A program made the position numbers and the translations under genes. Positions 47,646 to 58,677 of a DNA stretch of 64,000 nucleotides are shown here, in pieces; the stretch's first letter is position 1, and each line of letters starts with the position of its first letter. The notes under the pieces are model-generated. The model saw nothing but the letters and a program-made list of their open reading frames with translations. It searched no databases and had not been told where the DNA came from. Source of the stretch: Minutocellus sp. GHC0000111 (lineage: Eukaryota); assembly GCA_977018835.1 (NCBI GenBank), contig OZ361260.1, forward strand, positions 3,782,001 to 3,846,000, read 5' to 3'.

Positions 47646-50079
47646 TTACAAGCTGCCATTTTCTCTCAGTATCGCCGGCATCCAAGAGCTAACATCATTT
47701 GCCGATACACCGAAGTTTGTCTTAGCTTTCTTATTATTTCTTGCAGATTTCTTGTTGCTGCCTGGGCTTCTGCGCTTCTTTCCGGCGTAAACGACAACGT
47801 CGTCAGCATCGTCGCATTGACATTCAGCCCGAGTGTGGCCAAGCTGCTTGCATTTCTGACACTGCTGGTCAATCTTCTTCTTGCGGCCAGGCTTTGCTGG
47901 TTTCGCCTTACCAGCAGCTAGGGCCCTGTTCTTCTTGTACACATAGTCCTTGTCGTCTTTCTCGCTTCTGTTTCGCAAGGCTGCTCGAAGGCGCTTGCTG
48001 TCGCTCTTGCTCTTTTTGTACTCATCGGTGCGCTTACGCGCAAGGTCGCCCTCGAGCTTCCGGTCAATTGCATCGAATCCATCTTTTCGGGTAGGAGAAT
48101 CCCTCGATCCCAACTTTTCAAGAACTCGCTCATTGAATTCCGTACCCAGTGACTTGTGGCCAGCGGCTCTACTTGTTGCATTTGGGTAGGCGTCTGAAGC
48201 AGTCAAATTCGGCCTTTTCCCCATCGTGAACTTCGTCACCATCCCGTTGAGCTGTTCGACGCCGGTGGTAGATTCCTTCTTGCAGTTGGAGTCGGCAGTA
48301 TTCTTGTTGATTCTCTTGGTTATTTCAAGCGTCATCTTGCGAATCGTGTCGTCACTAATCTCCAACATGTCGCCATCGAATTGATTCCCCGAGCTCCATT
48401 CCTCATCGAGCTTGCCATCACTCCAATCAGGATGAGCAATGCTGAGGCGAATCCAATCACACGTGTTGGTGGTGCAAAAAGTGTGAATGCCACATTGGTG
48501 ACGAACGACGGACTGGAGTTCTTTCTGAAGGAGGGCCAGATGACTTTGTTTTTCCTCCTCGGACACAGCACCATCGGGCTGATCGAGAACGCTGTGCTTG
48601 TACCGATCAGTAATCTTCGAAATGTCCTGTTTCATCCGATTGATGCGTGGTCGGGGGATGGCATTAAAATTTTCAACTCCCAACATTCTCGGCCAGATGC
48701 TCCTCTGCCACACCGGGGGAGCAGGAAGAGTTGCGATAGCAGAAGCCATCATGGTCGTACAGGGCCAGCATCTCATCCTTGCTCATGTTTTTGAGCTCAC
48801 TCGGCGTCATTGGATTGCCGGCTTCCCGCCTCTCCCTCAATCTTGCATTGCAGGCTCTCACGCAATAGTGGCAGCTTGCCTGAGAGATTCCCTTGTCAAC
48901 AACAAGGCCAGTTTCCTTGTCTACGGCAAATACCGCTGCAGCAGAGCCAGTGTAGCAATGGCCGTAGTCGCGTTTGAGGGCGCTGCCGTCTTGGGCCACC
49001 GTAACCACCGCCGCCGTGTGCATCTCGCCGCCTTGTTCAAACTCAACAGTCTTGCTGCTAGCGGCACATGCTTTTGCCCTATTCTCGTCAATGATTTCAT
49101 CAGCTGCTTCAATAGCCGCTGCTCTGCATTTCTTTTCCACCTGTCGGGCATTCTTTTCGGTCGGATGGACGATGTCGGCCTTCGTGCAGAAATTCATGAA
49201 GCGACTTGCGCACATGGCCTCATCTTCCGCTGCCTCCATCAGCTCCAAGTTCATTCCAGCCTGACTTCTAGAATGCTTTCTGCCGGGGCACACAACTTCT
49301 GACCTCTGGCCGATCCAAGTGCAAAAAGAAAAAGGTTGGTTGCATCTATCGCATCGCCATTCAAATGTAACGCCGAATCCACGCCGAACTGGCTCGGCCG
49401 AGAGATGCAGATTGCCGCACGATCGGTGGAGATTCTGTGCGAAATCATGCAGCTGCTTCATCTCAACCACAATTCTTTTGCCGTTGAGCTGCACGCCGGT
49501 GATGTTGGGACGATCGGCAGCGTTGGCGGTGGGAGTAGATGACCGACCGCCCGAAGAGTTCTTGTCGGAATAACATTTCAGCATCGCGTTGAGATGGGGC
49601 CCATGCTTTTCATCGTCCTGGAAGCAATTTTCAGGCATGGTCGGCAGTGATCGCTTGCCATTGCGTTGAGAGCGTGGGCTGGCGTTATCGGCTATTCTGG
49701 AGAAGCGGTAGAAGGGCTTTGCAACGTCAAGGCCTGATATTTTCTCTGGACGTCGTCGTTGGATGTTGACCTCGTGTCGTGTTGGGACGTGTTGAAGAGA
49801 TGATCGAACAAGAGAGATCTCTAAGCTCGGCGACACGCCACCGCGCATCAAGATACGAACAAGCTCATCAATAGTGTAGTAAGTACATCTGACGTCGTCT
49901 GGGAATGAGAGCAAGAGTGAGAGGATTGCCTCCTTGGCGTTAGCACGTGACGTTTTGTGTCGGCTCTGGCGCAAGACACGCTTTTCGATGAGAACCTTAC
50001 AAAAAGAACCCCAAATGAGGGAGACGTGCAAAAATACCCCAAACAAATATCCCCTTGCCTCCCAACAGCAAAACTTCAA
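47646..50079 (-). pseudogene. Kolobok/'Mutator-like' DDE transposase, split by an apparent internal deletion at ~48675
   Basis: QDGSALKRDYGH...TGLVVD...SCHYC...CYRNSSCSPGVAE (first catalytic D region), then in another frame HQCGIHTFC...TTGVEQLNG (catalytic E) and a CCHC knuckle CQKCKQLGHTRAEC. Confidence 0.75.
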
Positions 50080-50411
50080 GATATCTTCCCACCAGCACCA
50101 CCAATGCTGGTCATGCGTCGGCCGAGACTAATTTCGGTCGATCCGACGATGATGATGTGCACGTCGACTATTGTGTTTCTGAGGGAGAGTTGATTCATCG
50201 AAGTTCCTCTGAACCAAGTGTTCCTGGAGGGATTTCCGACTTAATGCTGAAAGGAACGTCGATGACTCTTCGCCACTGTGGAGAGCGGCGGCCTTCGATG
50301 AGGAGCCCATTGTCACGTTGGAGTGCTAACTTTGGCGACGGTGCGAAGAAAAAACGGCACAAAACACGCATTTTGGGGGCTTCCTAAAAGTTATGGACAG
50401 CGCCCTCTTAA

Positions 50412-52595
50412 CTCTTTGTTCCCGAAAGTTGCTCCCGGAAAGCGACGTCATTTTTTTTCAACGAAGAACAATGGCGGCACGCACTATTCGCTGTCTCCGT
50501 ACTCAGCGATCGCATCACGAATAACTTTCATATTGTAGTATCATTTGCCTCTCTACTTGGTCCACATATATATCTGGTTCGATAATACGCGACGCGCTTC
50601 CTCGTCGCGTATCTTGACACATCATCGCAGCACCGCATTTTCGTCAAACGACGACGAATTCCACCCAATTGCCTCCTCTCTCGGCCTTTGCGCAAAACGT
50701 CCGAATAGGGCCCAGCACCCTATTATTTCCAGCCCAGTCCCATCAATAACATCGCCCTCCATCATCTGAGAGGCTTGGTGAGTTCGCCGATCGAGTCGGT
50801 ATCTTTGTTCTCCTGCCGCCTGACGAACAATTCTCATTTATGCCCATTGTTCCTTCGTATTGCACTGTTCCACCCATTACAGCCCACCATGTCGGCAGAG
50901 GATATGGATATCGATACCGACGATGGCTCTGATGAAGATATGGTTGGTGTGGAGGGTGCTGGTCCTGACGACGATCTCCTCCACGATATTGAGAGTGGCA
51001 ACTTGCGGCCCCTCCAACAGCCACAAAACGTTGCCGCCGCATCAGATCTTGTGGCAGCTACTACCACCTCTACCACCGCCGTTCAACGCCGAAGGCAAAA
51101 CGAATCCATCGCCCATGATGATATTGTCGCCGGAAATATCATCATGGTCAGTCTTGGGTCAGTCTTGACTGCGAGACTACCGGTGTGGAAGGCATCCTGC
51201 TCCAACTATCGGCCGAATTCATCGACATGGCCACCAAGGAGACCATCGTTACGTTCAATTCCTTCGTCCGCCCTCCCGACGACGCCGAATGGAACATGAG
51301 GGCATGTCGGGAGTCCCATAACTATAGCAAGAATGATGAGCGTATCAGGAATGCCAGTGGTATTGAGGCAGTATGGACGGCATTTCATGACAAGTGCAAG
51401 GTTATTCTCGCCGCCAAGAAGGGCTTGCTTGTCGCTTGGCACGGAACGTCAGATTGCCAGCACATCTTCAAGATCGTCGAGGACACCCACAAGGGCAAGT
51501 TGTTCTTCCCGGGGGAGATTGAATATTTCTGTGATCCTTGTGCTGTTGTTGAGCACTACAAGTCGTGCCAGTTGCATGAGGTCCGCCGGGCTTCGGGCGT
51601 GGTGGGCTATGGTCTGGGGACGGTGTACGAGGAGGCGTTCGGCGAAAAAATTGTTGGAGCCCATGACTCTCTTGTCGATGCGAAAGCACAGACTAAGATA
51701 GTTTTGGACTCAAGGGTATTCAAATTTATTGATAGAAAGGCTTCTATCATGTCCCTGAAAGATGTTTGGTCGGCAAAGCGGAAGAAGCAGCAAGAGCATC
51801 GCATTCCTCCCATGCCGATGCAAGAGCTGCTTCTTCTGCAAGAACAATCTGACCGGCCCCGATGGCCCACCTCCGTCGCCCCGAAAACATCGCCGTCTAC
51901 CGCAACCTCCACCTGGTCCTCCCCCCGCCCACCGCCATGCAACAAAATATAGAGTCACTTTATTTGAGAATCCAAAGAGCTGTGGATTGTGCATGCAAGA
52001 GCAGAGGAAGCCACCGGTAGACAAGAGAGTTGAGGGTGAGAAATACATCAATAGAACTCGAGTTGGCTGTCCCCATCCTAATTGCCGGGCCCATCCAATT
52101 TGCAATGACCACTGGCCTAATTACAATCATGCAAAGTAAAATAAATATCATGCATGGTTGTTCTCACCTTTTATTCGGCGTCGTGGGCACAAAATGTAAA
52201 ATCCCGGTCGGACGACAATTCGCCAAATCGAGCAAAGCCAACCACCACCCCTCATCACAAATACCACAGCCGACCTTATGAGGGGTATGGGGCATGCTGG
52301 TATCGCAGCTGGAACAATGCGCTTGTATTCGAAGCAATAAGTGGTCGTGAAATCGGCCGCATCGAGGCACTCTGACGAATGAGAAGCGCTCGCGATGTTG
52401 AGAAAAGATACCGGTAGATACGGTGTACATAATGAAAGTAGAGATGACGGCCATTAATATGATGTGTTATGGGTGCAAGAAAGCGGCGGGAAGGTTGCCG
52501 TCGCTACCCGTGAAGTTCCACCATGGTGGCGTGCATATGTGGTTTTGCGAGTGGCCGTTTTTTTTGTGCATTTTGGTGCGCCGGGGAACAAAGAG
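50412..52595 (+). mobile_element. piggyBac-like non-autonomous element (2184 bp) carrying a DEDDh exonuclease
   Basis: 12-bp TIRs CTCTTTGTTCCC (50412-50423) and GGGAACAAAGAG (52584-52595), TTAA at 50408-50411 and 52596-52599, and a Cys-rich tail resembling the piggyBac CRD. Confidence 0.75.
50889..52139 (+). pseudogene. DEDDh 3'-5' exonuclease domain joined to a piggyBac-type Cys-rich C-terminus (disrupted)
   Basis: Removing the 11-bp tandem duplication GGTCAGTCTTG (51146-51167) gives VSLDCETTG...FNSFVRP...LVAWHGTSD...AHDSLVDAKA. After a frame switch at ~51795 it reads PCRCKSCFFC...CGLC...RTRVGCPHPNCRAHPICNDHW. Confidence 0.75.
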
Positions 52596-52639
52596 TTAAA
52601 AGTACAAAACCTGAGACTGCAACGGCGGGTTGCGCCACA

Positions 52640-55600
52640 GCACAAGAAGGAACCTCGTTGGATCATGCGTGTGGAGACTCCGGATGCAAATTCTTGGACC
52701 TGGCGACGGATGTGCTTGAGGAAGGCGTCACTGGACCACCGCCCTACCAGCATGATTGTGTACGTGGGAACATCATTTAGACACATTGCCATTGCTGCTC
52801 CGCTGCGAATGGAGTGTGATCCGAATTCAGAGGGGGATGGCAGCCAGCCCAGGACGTCCTCTCTCCAATCACTGTGGCCGACGCTCTCGGATCTTGTCAA
52901 CTATTCGGGTGGCAGGAATGTATTTTAATGCGCCGTTGACCACGAAGGCATTTACCGGCGTGTCGCTGTTGGCACTAGGGTGCCCTAGGACTCGTTTCAC
53001 CAGGGCAGCCCAAGCTCGAACTGGCTGGGCAGAGGGTGGCGTCGTGGGTGCAGTGTTGCGCAATCGTGACGTCACGCTCGTCGTTCTTCTGGAACTCAAA
53101 GGTGACGGAGACAGAGTCTGCTGAGAGGAGGGACCGGTCGTTGTGACACATGCGCCGTCGGCCGCGGCAGAACTGGATGTTGCGGAGGCGGAGCAGCTTG
53201 GTCCTGCGCTCACCGCTGACTCTCTGGAGTGTTCGCAAGACCTCATCGCGAAGAAGGCGCCGACGACGGCTAGTTGCCCGACTGCACGGTCCTCTTCCGT
53301 TTCCCTGACGGAGGCGATCTCTCGGAGGAGCCGGCAGGTGATCGCCTTCTCCGGCCGCTCGGCCGGGTCGGACTGGCTGTGTCCTCGGAACTGCCGCTGC
53401 AGAAGGAATGAAGGCTGGCCGATGTCGTCTTTCCCTGGGTCCCTGCGCTGCTGGTTGGTGCCGGAAGGACGAGCGTGCATGTGAGACGGTGTCTCGGACT
53501 GTCGACGCAGCCAGTCGCGAAAACTTTGGCCCCGAAAAGCTGGCCTGTCGGACGGCGTGGGCAAAGGCGCCGAGAATGACTGTTCGGTCTCGGGGTGATG
53601 CCTTGTCGAGGAAGACGTCGTCCCCGGTCCCGATGAGCTGCAGGAGCTCAGTCCAGCGGCTCCACGCGAGAGCGTGTTTCTCGGCAGTGGCCGTTGCAAC
53701 TGCTTCCTGACGGGCAGCGTCCGCGCCTGCGAGACAATCCAGGAAGCAATCTCGTTGGGCAGTGGCGCAATCCTGAAATTTGAGGGAAGCTGACATTCGG
53801 GAGATGACAGAAGCAATTTCGTGAGGTCAGCATCAGAGAGAGATCGGCATCACGAGAAAGAGAGTCGGCCTCCGGATTGCGCTTCCCCTGGAGCCACTGT
53901 GAGTGCAGCATGGTGTTGGTCTCGATGAGCATGTCGGCTAGTTTCCGCGCCGTGGCCAGCTTGACCGCTGCGTCGGCATCCTTCTCTCGCCGTGAGACAC
54001 GAAGTTCGACTTCCTGAGCCATCCCTCGGCCGTGGTGCTGTCGGTCCCCGACAGTGCGCAGGAGAGGGTTGGCAGGTTGCCCTCGATGTGGTCGATCCAT
54101 GGGCCGATGACGGCGGCGAGGAATTCCAGGCAATTGAGGGTGAACCGGCCCCACAGCTCCTCGGGGAGGGCAAATCTCCACGCTCTGCCGGATGAGGACC
54201 ATCCGCCGATGCCGTGCTCGCAGGCGTCACTTGTGTGCTCGTGGGTGGGGCAACGGCACGTGAGGAGGTTCATGCTCATGCCATCGGCGGCCCTTCGGAG
54301 GAAGCGGAGCCACAGGTTGAGGTCTTCTGCATCCTCAGAGTCGAACCGTTGGCGGCCGTGGCGGCGGGCCTTCCAGAGCCGATCCCGAAGGCGGCTGAGG
54401 AAGTGTCGTGCGGCTGGAGTGATGTGTCCGACGTGGTTTAGCCTTCCGACCAAGGTGTCCAGCTCTGATCTGGTGGCGCCGCGGGCTCTGAGGAGCCGAA
54501 GCATGTCATCGCGCCAGGCCAGGTGCTTGCTCCAAGGGAGCCTCAGCGGGAGCCGCCGGGTGTCAGCATCCCACCCCAAGAGACACAGTGCTTCGGAAGG
54601 CGTCCCCTCGGCGAGCAGCTTCTTGATGGAGGCAAGGTCATCTCTGGGCAGTGGCTCGCTATCGGATGCCGGTCGGCCAAGCGCGTGGATGGCGAGGAGG
54701 GTGGCAGCGGACATCCGATCCTTGTTGTCGCCCAGGTCAGGGGCTGCGGCGATGAGGTCATCGACGTGCGGCTCGACGATGCCATCCTTGTTGTCGGGAA
54801 GGGTTGCGATCATGTCCAGGGCCGGCGCGAACGGCACATCGTCGCCCTCCACCTTGGGGCGACCCACGTGCTTCTGCTGGGGGCTGTGGAGCTCTGACGG
54901 GTCCCAGTCCGAGCATTGCAGGAGAGGGCCCTGGCCAGGTCGGCCGCCGATTCGGACACATTGCACCACTCGCTCGGGCAAGGGCGGCCGCCGAAAGTCA
55001 GCCGGAGGGACATGAGGGCAATGCCATCCAGGGTGGTGATCGTTTTGACGGCCGTGCTGGGAGCCAAGTGGGCCCGGCGACACGCAGCCTTGAAGTCGAC
55101 CTTCTGCAGGAGGATGGGAGTGCGGGGATGCTTGTGACGGGCGTCTGCGATGCAGTGGATCACTCGCCGGAGGGCATGGCCGAACACCACTGGCTGGTGG
55201 TCCTCCATGCGTGCTCTGTTGTTGACGGACCGTGCGGTGCCGATCTCGAAGGATTGGTCGTGAGTCAGGCGGTCCTTGGGCGTGATCTCGCCAGCCTCGC
55301 TGATCGTGTTCTGTGCTACCAAACCCATCGGAGCCACCTCCGCTCCAGGAATGAGGGGCGCGACCTTTGCTGGCAGAGGGAGGGCGAAGCCGCGGGTCAC
55401 GTCGTCGAGAACTTGGTCCTTGAGTGCCTCCGGCCTGTCCCTGGCCGATTTGTGGTTGCCTCGGCCGATGTTCTTTGTCACGCTGTCCAGTCTGCTTTCG
55501 TCGCTCACCGGATCGAGGGCCCAGTCGGATCCACTGTCGAGAATGGAGCGGAAGCGGGGCCACAGCGGGTGCCGGCCAAGAATCGGCTCCAGAAGACTCA

Positions 55601-55830
55601 GGTCTCTGAACTCCGATCCCGGTTGGAGTGGCGACCCGCCCTGCGCCTCGAGTGCCCTGCTCAGAGAACGATCGTGTTTCTTGAGGACCGACCAATTGTG
55701 AGCGGCGGCCTCCGTCAAGAGCTCAAATCTGAACTCCGTGGGCTTCGGTGTGGCCGACGGGGACTCGACTGCTCGTCGGACGTGCTGTGCCAAGGTGGAA
55801 ACATCGAAGATGGGCTCTAGTTCCCACGTG
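52640..55830 (-). mobile_element. Degenerate tyrosine-recombinase retrotransposon (DIRS/Ngaro-like): RT, RNase H and YR; 5'-truncated, several frameshifts
   Basis: RT: RLTHDQSF, KVDFKAACRR, RLTFGGRPCP, HVDD, LLGW. RNase H: SDAC..GIGG, NCLEFLA, TDSTTA, NPEADSLSR. YR: FFAMRSCE, FQKND, LCP, HSIRSGAA, GRWSSDAFLKHIR. Confidence 0.9.
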
Positions 55831-56931
55831 GAATTGCACAAGGCGAGAAAGGTGAGACATGCACATGCTGCACGTTCACGAGCATGCGGGTCTGTCCGAC
55901 CGTGGTGGGCCCATTGTGGGCGCTGGGCTGCCCCGTTTGTTGTAGGTGTTTCTTCACCTGTTGGTCTCACTTGCCAATCCAACTTTTACAAACAGCGTCG
56001 CGATTGAGCAAAAAAGTAAACAGTGCACCCAAACAAACACATCACGTCCTTCTTAACTCACCCATTTATCTCCCAGACCAAAAAGTCCCTTTGTCGGGTT
56101 GATTGTTGCATAAACTTATCCCAATGCTGTCTGTCTCTCCTCGGGCGCAAAACTGTTGTCGGAATTCCGGGAGGTCGAGTGGGGATGCGATCGGTCGGGA
56201 TCAGCGAGAGTCGGTCATGCGGGGGGTGCGGCGCAATCCCGGCAGTTTATCATCAACAACAACGTGGGAAAGTGCCAGAGGGTCTGGGGCATCACAACGG
56301 GAGCACGACGAGCACAAAGACGGAGCAATGGTGCCACCCCAGAGAAACGAACGGCCGACAGATGGAGGAAAAGCAGGCCGATGGTTCGTGGCGTTGATGC
56401 GCAGCGGAGGCCAATCTGAGGATGCAGTGAGCTTCAACTACATCCAAACATGATAATGAATGCGTATTTGGTACGAAAATATAGTTGTACGCCGGCGCAA
56501 CGCCGACGGACCACCATGGTGTTGGACGGTCAAAGAATGGGTGACGAACGAGATTGGGTTTTGGTGGGTTTCTTCGTGACGTGTTCGTCTTCTGCCGAAA
56601 AACGCTTCATCCGACCGGCGAAACAAGACGAGATGGGGCTGTGTGCCCTTGCTTGCCTTCGCTTCCGCAGGCCGCGGAGATGTACTGCAAAGGCATAGAG
56701 GCGCCTTGATGTCTGTGGCCCCTGCCTGACTAGGGGTACTTTCTTGGTCATGAAGGAGGTTGTGGCTTCATTCTCAGCAGCAGGCAGATTTTGCAGATTC
56801 AGATTCGCGTGGCAGGCCGCATGAAAATAATGAGATGCGACCAAGACATGCATGGTGGAGAATGAGCAAATCTTGCCTCGAAGCAAAGTTCAAAGTTCAA
56901 CTCTCTCCTCTGCTGCCTGCTACGCTCTACG

Positions 56932-57030: not shown

Positions 57031-57135
57031 CGGCCAAAGCGAACATAACTACTTTGAGTGCGTAGTAGCTACGTAGGATCCAACTGCCTGTTCAGCTCTG
57101 CTTGCATACAAATCTCGCTATTCACGTGTAAGCAA

Positions 57136-58677
57136 ATGAGAACTGCAATTTGTAGGAGCTTGTCCCGCCGTGCGCTACTTTCACCGGAGACAGTGGCATC
57201 GATGCCACTACTCGCTACCGGCTCTGTGCGTGGCATCCAAACATCGAAGGCCGACCCTCTCTCCAAGGAATATAAATACTGGAATCGCGAAGAATCGAAA
57301 CATGGGGAGTATGCCTATCTGCTGGAAATGAGTCCCTGGAGTGTGAAACGAGAGGCAAGAATTGTATCACTCTCAGATCGAAATGACACTGCCAACGATG
57401 CCCTCCACAAGGGCAAGCTACCTTACTCGTCTCAACTACTGGGTGTCGGAGAGACCTTGGACGATGTGGAGCATCTGGCCGACCAAAAGCCCAATATTCT
57501 TTTTGTGTCGCCGTCATGCCCACGAGCCTGCAAGGTTCTTCCAAAAGTCCTGGAAGCATTCCCTGCGATTGAATGGGTGCATGTCAGATCAGCTGGCCTT
57601 GACTTCCTCAACCCCGAAGAGTTGCAGACGGATCTGTCTAAGAACATACCCTTTACCAATGCGAAAGGCCAATTCTCTTCGTCGTTGGCTGAGTACACAT
57701 TAATGTCGTGTTCGTATTTCGCGAAGGATTTACCTCGTCTGATGAGACAGAAGCAAGCACAAAACTGGGAGAAGTATGATGTAGAGGAGCTTCGTGGCAA
57801 GACGCTCGGGGTCGTCGGCTACGGAGACATCGGAAGAGCAACTGCAAAACTTGCCAATGCTTATGGGATGCGAGTGATCGCTCTTCGCCGTCATCCTGAG
57901 ATTTCCGCCAACGATCCTCTTTGCGATAAAGTTTTGGGGACTGGTAAAGCAGCACTAAATGAACTCATGGCCGAGAGCGATTATGTGGTTTGCTCTGCTC
58001 CATCCACAGTATCAACGCGTGGCATGGTAAATGAAGATGCGTTTGCTGCAGCAAAGGAGGGAATGGTGTTTATCAATTTGGGAAGAGGACCCGTCGTTGA
58101 TGAGAAAGCCATGATAAATGCGCTCAAATCTGGCCAGTTGAAGGGAGCTGCCCTCGATGTCTTCGCTGAGGAACCTCTCCCAAAAGGCCACGATCTCTGG
58201 GGCTTGGACAATGTTCTAATCAGCCCTCATAATATGGATCAGGTATGTGTGCATTTGAACGCAATATATGTATGTATGTATCGCTGGGATTTGACCGTTG
58301 GGATTCGTTCCAACGATCACCTAACTCGCCTACTAATGACATTCTTTGCTGATTTGTAGTATGTATGTATATGTAGGTATTTTTGATCTAAAAAATCTGT
58401 GTGCCTGCGCTGCGTACTATGAAAAGATTCCTAATTCTCATTTCCCTCTGTTTTCATCATTTGAATAATTTCATTCGATCGATGTAAAAACGTGACTGTG
58501 TGTTGTTGACTGCATCTGCATCTGTTCCTCTTTCCACGGCTCTTCCAAATTTGTGTGCACCTGTAGACGGAAACTTTTATGCACGAAGCAACATCATTCT
58601 TCCTGATGGAGAACCTTCCCCGATTCATTTGTGGAGAAGAATTGCTCAATCGAGTGGATGTGACGGCTGGCTATTAG
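57136..58677 (+). CDS. D-isomer-specific 2-hydroxyacid dehydrogenase
   Basis: GKTLGVVGYGDIG, FINLGRGPVVDE, GAALDVFAEEPLP and ISPHN. Intron at 58243-58566; last exon TETFMHEA...VDVTAGY*. Confidence 0.9.

What the first reader, a model, noticed from the sequence alone, without database searches (positions are those of the whole stretch)
53041..55800. Candidate RIP-like TpA>CpA/TpG hypermutation that has erased tyrosines from a retrotransposon
Seen: a manual scan finds only about 5 TA dinucleotides in these 2760 bp, whereas the GC-rich CSN5 exon nearby has several within a few hundred bases. The RT and RNase H frames and the N-terminal YR frame contain no Tyr. Established: these families have Y(I/V)DD, an AYR motif after the first RT Asp, and a catalytic Tyr in the recombinase. 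Here they read HVDD, ACRR, SCEHS and FLKHIR, i.e. TAY>CAY or TAY>TGY, which is A>G on either strand of TpA. TA and Tyr reappear at the element edge (LKYI, PTYT). Inference: a repeat-targeted mutator (e.g. adenine deamination or modified-base mispairing at TpA) inactivates TEs. It would be analogous to fungal RIP but raise GC and target TpA. CpG decay cannot explain it, because CpG is abundant here.
Basis: partly seen in the sequence, partly recalled or inferred. Interest (0 to 1): 0.9.

Follow-up and report, generated by a model that had tools for sequence, protein, structure and literature searches.

The report
TpA-erasing hypermutation of diatom retrotransposon
In this diatom, copies of one jumping gene have lost most of their TA steps to TG or CA in a pattern that differs from copy to copy while CG steps are untouched, likely the mark of a host DNA-editing defence so far reported only in one unrelated alga.

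Summary
In detail: 5 TpA in 53041-55800 (o/e 0.06), against at least 39 in any equal stretch elsewhere in the window and o/e 0.25-0.85 in 80 related elements. The stretch is a truncated copy (52644-55975, minus strand) of a multi-copy RT/RNase H/tyrosine-recombinase retrotransposon in a diatom. Seventeen sister copies polarise the changes: at 10 tyrosine codons conserved in relatives, 115 of 129 observations are His (66) or Cys (49), with no other residue. Both strands are hit equally, copies are unlinked, and CpG is stable. A followed by a pyrimidine is hit about 4.6 times faster. Short-read DNA and RNA contigs carry the same alleles, so this is no assembly artefact. The closest known case is the TpA hypermutation of integrated viruses in Bigelowiella natans (2026 preprint). 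I found no paper on it in diatoms, but this scan has noted it in other diatom genomes. Here it is uncoupled from CpG decay, spares a more abundant neighbouring repeat, and fades at the element's 3' end. The enzyme is unknown; a TadA/ADAT-type DNA adenine deaminase is my best guess. Verdict: real; new member of a recently described kind.

The parts
52644..55975 (-). Truncated copy of a multi-copy tyrosine-recombinase retrotransposon (pol followed by an overlapping recombinase ORF); both ends missing
   Evidence: Majority contigs at depth ~2100-2600 against 46-96 in unique flanks (run X1); other copies run on into different sequence at 52644 and 55976; those continuations are absent from the window
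52991..55815 (.). TpA-erased core: 5 TA in 2825 bases, o/e 0.05; CpG o/e 0.94
53380..55835 (-). pol (RT-RNase H) reading frame, broken by small insertions near 54922, 53983, 53835 and 53451-57; limits approximate
   Evidence: the model of the 66%-identical intact relative P0003 matches retroviral and Ty3 RT structures, best E 4e-10
55074..55103 (-). First RT aspartate motif KVDFKAACRR; Cys stands where relatives have Tyr
   Evidence: Relatives Y97/F18/C1 of 116; copies plus window C12/H2
54757..54768 (-). RT active-site motif HVDD (family YIDD)
   Evidence: Relatives Y64/F49/H1/gap 2 of 116; copies plus window H13/C2/Y1
52644..53826 (-). Tyrosine-recombinase ORF in several frames, with motifs RSCEH, HSIRSG and GRWSSDAFLKHIR; the presumed catalytic Tyr is His at 52712-52714 (assignment of catalytic residues recalled)
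   Evidence: sister P0133 aligns over 973 columns at 40% to a Fragilaria protein whose C-terminus has a weak Phage_integrase hit, E 0.003, below Pfam's cut-off; P0125 and P0133 keep FLKYI
52644..52990 (.). 3' part of the element with weak erosion: 9 TA in 347 bases, o/e 0.51
   Evidence: an RNA contig over 52644-52902 differs from the window by one letter, which restores a further TA
55976..56690 (.). Separate, far more abundant repeat abutting the element; not TpA-erased (o/e 0.39); right end approximate. Serves as the internal control

Best explanation
Copies of a diatom tyrosine-recombinase retrotransposon carry TpA-to-TpG/CpA changes at most ancestral TpA sites, equally on both strands and unlinked between copies, likely put there after insertion by a host mutator that likely deaminates the adenine of 5'-TAY-3' in silenced mobile DNA. 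SHOWN: the changes, their symmetry, the lack of linkage and of same-strand runs, the preference for A followed by a pyrimidine (RTAY fastest, YTAR spared), stable CpG, confinement to this element within the window, and loss of conserved RT tyrosines. INFERRED: the hits land on integrated DNA one at a time over many divisions; each TpA is lost once either strand is hit, so erosion saturates; the mutator is recruited by a regional mark (chromatin, methylation or RNA) rather than by copy number; and the outcome is permanent inactivation. GUESSED (about even odds): the enzyme is of the TadA/ADAT type (A to inosine, read as G). I put about 0.9 on a targeted post-insertion DNA mutator and about 0.6 on that together with adenine-side chemistry.
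For: Depletion. Not a family trait: 80 related loci have o/e 0.25-0.85, median 0.52; restoring the inferred sites gives 45 TA in 2455 bases, o/e 0.50. Polarity with sites chosen from relatives only: 6 codons with Tyr in both closest relatives give H52, C38, Y1 of 91; 10 codons give H66, C49, Y14 of 129. Ile(ATA) sites show I/M/T, and one TATA site shows V/A/T/M. Symmetry: CA 100, TG 93, TA 34 at 18 resolved sites, p 0.67. Independence: r2 0.101 against 0.102 in permutations; adjacent same-strand 287 of 540 against 282±9. Spectrum: TA>TG class 318 of 829 opportunities, AA>AG 11 of 1399, CA>CG 20 of 3059, CG>CA 11 of 3392, transversions 21 of 47258. Context: 3' pyrimidine 4.6x, p 1e-18; -2 purine a further 2.8x, p 6e-11. 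Short reads: an 860-base RNA contig differs from the window by 9 letters and holds about 1 TA against about 14 expected. Precedent: B. natans, where the hypermutated sites all fall on TpA and an ADAT2 candidate is proposed. TadA/ADAT2 acts on 5'ACG and one TadA-derived editor prefers YAC, while ADARs are listed as 5'UAG, a spared context here.
Against: No enzyme was identified: no genome is held. A>G after T and T>C before A are the same change on a palindrome, so sequence cannot say which base is attacked. The sister copies were seen only as predicted proteins, so silent changes are invisible; the TA>TG rate is partly circular because TA sites were defined from variation (the test is not). 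The context model treats observations as independent and misses sites that never vary visibly. Some sites show strong direction bias (13:2) that flanking bases may not explain. One review gives ADAR2 a 3' preference U=G>C=A, so context alone excludes ADAR-like enzymes less cleanly. Frequent 1-4 base duplications in the element fit an error-prone polymerase better than a deaminase. A defensive role is inferred; the element is still covered in RNA libraries.
Confidence: 0.6

Rival explanations
1. Same targeted DNA process, other chemistry: the T of 5'-RTA-3' is modified (for example oxidised to 5-hydroxymethyl- or 5-formyluracil) and mispairs with G, or an error-prone polymerase of the Pol eta/iota kind copies these regions during repair (enzyme properties recalled, not checked).
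For: T>C before A is indistinguishable from A>G after T. A weak secondary A:T>G:C drift exists outside TpA (AA>AG 0.008, CA>CG 0.0065; 5 of 8 window-private changes are T>C or A>G). The window copy has about 11 small indels against the majority contigs, mostly short duplications, and low-depth contigs show their own gaps.
Against: TpA is hit about 50 times more than the next class and transversions are about 1000 times rarer, cleaner than I recall for error-prone polymerases. The TAY preference resembles TadA-type enzymes.
Confidence: 0.28
2. RIP proper: pairing of repeated DNA is the trigger, and only the target base differs.
For: The hit sequence is a multi-copy family, and each copy is mutated independently.
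Against: A more abundant repeat next door is not erased (o/e 0.39). There are no same-strand runs. The B. natans target is single-copy. Erosion fades over the 3' part although that part is equally repeated. The spared repeat could be too young, too short or too diverged; its ancestral TpA content is unknown.
Confidence: 0.15
3. Editing of the RNA intermediate (ADAR-like), or an error-prone reverse transcriptase, before insertion.
For: ADARs favour a 5' U; the target is a retroelement.
Against: Editing of the sense RNA gives only TA>TG on the sense strand, yet every one of the 18 copies carries both CA and TG; no strand effect, p 0.42. DNA viruses show the same signature in B. natans.
Confidence: 0.03
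4. Composition: a GC-rich, TpA-poor family, or GC-biased gene conversion among copies.
For: The family is GC-rich even after the sites are restored (0.616), and TpA is low in all this DNA.
Against: 80 of 80 relatives have o/e of at least 0.25. Conserved Tyr splits into His and Cys only. Other A:T sites barely move. Conversion would create linkage, and none is seen.
Confidence: 0.02
5. Long-read basecalling or assembly artefact at modified DNA.
For: The 17 sister proteins probably come from the same or similar assemblies; small indels cluster in the element.
Against: Contigs of runs from several studies, including Illumina RNA libraries, carry the TpA-poor sequence and both CA and TG alleles; unique flanks match with 0-1 differences in run X1.
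Confidence: 0.02

Closest known systems
TpA hypermutation of integrated NCLDV and virophage DNA in Bigelowiella natans (Mettrop et al., bioRxiv 10.64898/2026.01.13.699255; parts 1-4 of 5 of the text read, supplements not seen)
   Same: TpA>TpG/CpA on both strands, GC-raising, confined to foreign or mobile DNA; TpA-poor coding sequences there are enriched for reverse transcriptase and DDE domains; an ADAT-type deaminase is proposed.
   Different: That case is a rhizarian, measured as new mutations in largely single-copy viral inserts that are only partly eroded (Rho TpA 0.45). This one is a diatom, a multi-copy retrotransposon near saturation (0.05), polarised across 18 copies. A TAY/RTAY flank rule and stable CpG are shown here; the text I read reports no flank rule. 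No rate or enzyme is available here.
Fungal repeat-induced point mutation (RIP; abstract of PMC2621366 seen in the listing, details recalled)
   Same: Dense, context-specific transitions that inactivate transposon copies after insertion and spare neighbouring genes.
   Different: RIP makes C:G>T:A, mostly at CpA, creating TpA and lowering GC; this destroys TpA and raises GC. The duplication trigger is not supported here.
TadA/ADAT2 deaminases and TadA-derived adenine base editors (passages of PMC10661471 and PMC13109818)
   Same: A>G with a pyrimidine 3' of the target (5'ACG for TadA/ADAT2; YAC for one editor).
   Different: Natural substrates are tRNA; DNA activity is marked uncertain in the review's table. 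No such enzyme was found or tested here.
Tyrosine-recombinase retrotransposons (DIRS, Ngaro, Viper; passages of PMC4157794)
   Same: RT-RNase H followed by a tyrosine recombinase, no integrase seen.
   Different: Only 3.3 kb of the element is present, so terminal repeats and gag could not be examined. No methyltransferase-sized insert separates RNase H from the recombinase in the alignment, which points to the non-DIRS (Ngaro-like) group; no tree was built.

Membership tests
Bigelowiella-type TpA hypermutation | Changes are TpA>TpG or TpA>CpA almost exclusively | tested here: met
   115 of 115 replacements at 10 conserved Tyr codons are His or Cys; TA class about 50x the next class
Bigelowiella-type TpA hypermutation | Both strands are hit | tested here: met
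   CA 100, TG 93; strand term p 0.42
Bigelowiella-type TpA hypermutation | Confined to foreign or mobile DNA, host genes spared | tested here: met
   The only TpA-erased island in 64 kb; one window only, no genome-wide test
Bigelowiella-type TpA hypermutation | About 1000-fold raised de novo rate, active in only some lines | not testable with these tools
   Needs mutation-accumulation lines
Bigelowiella-type TpA hypermutation | ADAT2-like candidate in the genome | not testable with these tools
   No genome held
Fungal RIP | C:G>T:A transitions, mainly at CpA | tested here: not met
   G>A classes 0.001-0.003 per opportunity against 0.38 for TA>TG
Fungal RIP | Triggered by sequence duplication as such | tested here: inconclusive
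   The more abundant neighbouring repeat is not erased, but its age and ancestral TpA content are unknown
Fungal RIP | Acts in the sexual cycle through RID/DIM-2 methyltransferases (recalled) | not testable with these tools
   No genome and no life-cycle data
CpG decay of methylated transposons | CpG depleted, CG>TG/CA dominant | tested here: not met
   CpG o/e 0.94; 13 losses in 2682 site-copy observations
Tyrosine-recombinase retrotransposon | Reverse transcriptase and RNase H | tested here: met
   Fold of relative P0003 (pLDDT 85) matches MMLV, foamy, CaMV and Ty3 RT, best E 4e-10, low TM 0.3-0.5; Pfam and PDB sequence searches found no RT; the RNase H label rests on motifs and these RT chains
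Tyrosine-recombinase retrotransposon | Tyrosine recombinase downstream of pol | tested here: met
   R..HxxR..W..Y-type motifs (pattern recalled); weak Phage_integrase hit on relative P0017
Ngaro-like subgroup | No methyltransferase domain; split direct repeats | tested here: inconclusive
   No insert of that size seen; terminal repeats are missing from this truncated copy

The most novel reading that the evidence does not exclude
Diatoms and chlorarachniophytes share an ancient SAR-wide genome defence in which a natural adenine deaminase edits genomic DNA at 5'-TAY-3' in marked mobile elements. It would be independent of copy number and of CpG decay, an A>G counterpart of RIP and APOBEC, and a natural DNA adenine base editor.
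Probability: 0.4. Interest if true: 0.92.

Novelty: new member of a known kind. Interest (0 to 1): 0.72.

Why it matters
If this is the process seen in Bigelowiella, a targeted A:T>G:C mutator exists in two distant branches of SAR eukaryotes and acts on retrotransposons as well as viruses. It would be a third route of mutational genome defence beside RIP and APOBEC, invisible to RIP indices and opposite to the usual AT-ward mutation bias. It would also distort GC content, transposon dating and annotation in diatoms, since it removes tyrosines and creates no stop codons, leaving dead elements with long open frames. The TAY rule, stable CpG and the fading at the 3' end give a fingerprint for finding the enzyme and its targeting mark in genetically tractable diatoms. 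A natural deaminase acting on DNA adenines would interest the base-editing field.

Tried and rejected
No whole genome is held, so the genome-wide TpA map, the DNA alignment of copies and the deaminase search were not possible. Pfam found no RT or RNase H in the window frames or relatives, and a profile search of solved-structure sequences gave only chance hits; the fold search settled the RT label. The viral collection held no relative (0 of 26 candidate stretches); the metagenome scan returned relatives at 37-47% identity but no copy of this family. No terminal repeats were found for the element or for the 55976 repeat. The protein atlas did not answer. In one search the first set of 18 resolved sites included M/T and 15:1 H/C sites that may not be ancestral TpA; four doubtful sites (54836, 54525, 53931, 53910) were dropped. 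The Tyr-retention contrast (9 of 15 against 14 of 129) is biased because the recombinase sites were chosen for showing Tyr; I rely on TA density and majority contigs instead. In one search, 13 of 14 His and all 12 Gly at Arg codons come from one misaligned frameshift (53989-53992). Table 3 of read laying appears to omit variants near contig ends, so it was not used as a complete spectrum. RNA coverage of the element is not taken as proof of transcription. A TACG preference was not supported by inspection of the site table. PMC9399415 was irrelevant. Literature searches for a diatom case found none; the library lacks most subscription papers, and the preprint's supplements (which may hold flank contexts) were not seen.
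Full report
Observation. The interval 53041-55800 holds 5 TA steps (o/e 0.06) at GC 0.637, with CpG o/e 0.95; the window as a whole has TpA o/e 0.58. No 2760-base stretch outside the element has fewer than 39 TA, and the ten most GC-rich have 44-55. The minus-strand frames hold no Tyr in the interval and carry the quoted motifs.

Host and element. The named relatives of the neighbouring dehydrogenase (57058-58640) among the best 120 hits are diatoms where a species is legible, for example Seminavis, Nitzschia, Cyclotella and Thalassiosira, so the host is a diatom. No genome is held. Short-read contigs show a repeat from 52644 to 55975, with majority contigs at depth about 2100-2600 against 46-96 in unique flanks in run X1. 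Other copies continue beyond both ends, so this copy is truncated, and a different, more abundant repeat starts at 55976. Pfam and PDB sequence searches did not recognise the RT. A model of the intact relative P0003 (66% identical, pLDDT 85) matches MMLV, foamy-virus, CaMV and Ty3 reverse transcriptases (best E 4e-10, TM 0.3-0.5). A tyrosine-recombinase ORF follows pol: sister P0133 aligns at 40% over 973 columns to a Fragilaria protein with a weak Phage_integrase hit. This is a tyrosine-recombinase retrotransposon, probably of the non-DIRS kind (PMC4157794, passages); the subgroup is not settled.

Not a family trait. The search found 168 relatives and listed 120. In the 116 that are not near-identical copies or the first two of them, the AYRR position is Y97/F18/C1 and the YIDD position Y64/F49/H1 with 2 gaps; in 80 metagenome loci they are Y61/F19 and Y57/F21/C1 with 1 gap. 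The pol DNA of those 80 loci (the best 80 of 201, several of them near-duplicates) has TpA o/e 0.25-0.85, median 0.52, against 0.06 here.

Direction. Four proteins at 94-97% identity on megabase contigs, plus 13 cluster members, give 17 sister copies. Choosing codons from the relatives alone: 6 codons where both closest relatives have Tyr show H52, C38, Y1 in 91 observations, and 10 codons with Tyr in at least 2 of 5 relatives show H66, C49, Y14 in 129, with no Arg or other residue. His and Cys codons differ at two adjacent bases and each is one step from TAY. Ile(ATA) sites likewise split into I, M and T, and one TATA site gives V, A, T and M. Sites varying in at least two copies number 27 of 247 CA, 17 of 165 TG and 4 of 269 CG, three of the last being gains private to this copy. 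Setting the inferred sites back to TA gives 45 TA in 2455 bases, o/e 0.50, which matches the relatives. Per opportunity, the TA>TG class runs at 318 of 829, AA>AG 11 of 1399, CA>CG 20 of 3059, CG>CA 11 of 3392 and transversions 21 of 47258; the first figure is partly circular because sites were defined by variation. CpG losses are 13 in 2682 observations, so CpG decay plays no part.

Where and when. At 18 fully resolved sites the states are CA 100, TG 93, TA 34 (p 0.67 for symmetry), and every copy carries both CA and TG. Across 46 sites the copies show no linkage (r2 0.101 against 0.102 in 300 permutations), no same-strand runs (287 of 540 against 282±9) and no unusually close pair. I infer hits on integrated double-stranded DNA, copy by copy and site by site, not editing of the RNA intermediate and not amplification of one mutated master copy.

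Context. A likelihood model on 46 sites finds no strand effect (p 0.42), a 4.6-fold faster rate when the A is followed by C or T (p 1e-18), and a further 2.8-fold effect of a purine two bases upstream (p 6e-11). Of the five survivors, three are YTAR and none RTAY, whereas the rest of the window has 709 RTAY and 270 YTAR (p 0.019). Observations were treated as independent and invisible sites are missing, so the factors are approximate. This analysis preceded my look at earlier findings.

Artefact check. Contigs from several studies, DNA and Illumina RNA, carry the eroded sequence. Of the 26 listed differences inside the element, 7 restore a TA, 8 form four CA/TG flips, 1 removes a surviving TA, 6 are other transitions and 4 lie in one misaligned patch (only the best 40 of 198 rows were shown). 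An 860-base RNA contig differs from the window at 9 letters; with the 8 listed ones applied it holds 1 TA where about 14 are expected. Unique flanks match with 0-1 differences. The alleles private to this copy were not individually confirmed.

Limits of targeting. The 3' 347 bases keep 9 TA (o/e 0.51), and the majority contigs keep them too, so erosion fades within the recombinase gene family-wide. The adjacent high-copy repeat (0.39), a terminal-inverted-repeat element at 50405-52602 (0.64) and a Mutator-like region at 47646-50127 (0.40; Pfam E 1e-13) are not erased, and none shows the TAY deficit where tested. Being repeated is therefore not obviously enough, although the ages of these neighbours are unknown. 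Diatom transposons form CG-methylated islands (PMC9998398, passages), a plausible but untested guide.

What is known. A 2026 preprint on Bigelowiella natans (10.64898/2026.01.13.699255; parts 1-4 of 5 read; supplements not seen) reports a 1000-fold raised rate in two integrated viral regions, with A>G and T>C changes all at TpA, TpA-poor sequences enriched for RT and DDE domains, and an ADAT2 candidate. It does not contain the word diatom. Seven searches found no diatom report. This scan has noted the same pattern, and the TAY rule, in other diatom genomes. These are unchecked notes and are not used as support; two of them describe joint loss of TA and CG, which is not the case here. No note exists for this genome or sequence.

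Mechanism. Best reading: a host mutator, guided by a regional mark, converts the A of TAY, most simply by deamination to inosine. TadA/ADAT2 acts on 5'ACG and one TadA-derived editor prefers YAC, while ADARs are listed as 5'UAG (passages of PMC10661471 and PMC13109818); another review gives ADAR2 U=G>C=A at the 3' side (PMC11120146), which weakens the contrast. Sequence cannot separate this from damage to the T or from an error-prone polymerase, and the many short duplications in the element keep that rival alive.

Verdict. Real and strong; the same kind as the Bigelowiella signature, in a distant lineage and on a retrotransposon, with copy-level polarity, strand symmetry, a flank rule and independence from CpG decay shown here. 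The enzyme, the trigger and the defensive role are inferred. New member of a known kind; interest 0.72.

Noticed in passing
window 52835-55847: About 11 small indels against the family's majority contigs in 3.3 kb, nearly all duplications of 1-4 bases (CT, AG, GA, CTGG), while unique flanks show none; low-depth contigs of run X5 have their own gaps. Possibly a second, slippage-type signature in the targeted DNA.
   Followed up: partly
L032:1-2537: A related element (54% identity to its nearest relatives) from a metagenome contig has the lowest TpA o/e of 80 loci (0.25), the lowest TAY o/e (0.22), RTAY 5 against YTAR 16 (p 0.003, uncorrected for 80 loci) and 1 Tyr in 525 residues: a candidate second organism with partial erosion. 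Protein P0034 is a weaker candidate.
   Followed up: partly
window 55976-~56690: Unclassified repeat with about ten times the summed contig depth of the retrotransposon, no terminal inverted repeat found, TpA o/e 0.39; it abuts and may have truncated the element.
   Followed up: partly
window 50405-52602: Element bounded by 19-base inverted repeats that carries an RNase T-like (DEDDh) exonuclease frame, with an 11-base duplication near 51147-51167; a diverged paralogue exists in the reads.
   Followed up: partly
window 47646-50127: Mutator-like transposase and zinc-knuckle frames, TpA o/e 0.40, tyrosines present.
   Followed up: partly
window 51774-52673: Contig depth is about half that of other unique DNA in run X1 (46-49 against 76-96), suggesting the insertion region is on one haplotype only.
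   Followed up: no
window 58240-58565: A GT..AG intron spliced in RNA run X7 contains a short high-copy repeat near 58281-58365.
   Followed up: no
window 52644-55975: The eroded element is covered in RNA libraries at contig depth well above the neighbouring gene, and more than the high-copy repeat relative to DNA: a weak hint that dead copies are still transcribed.
   Followed up: no
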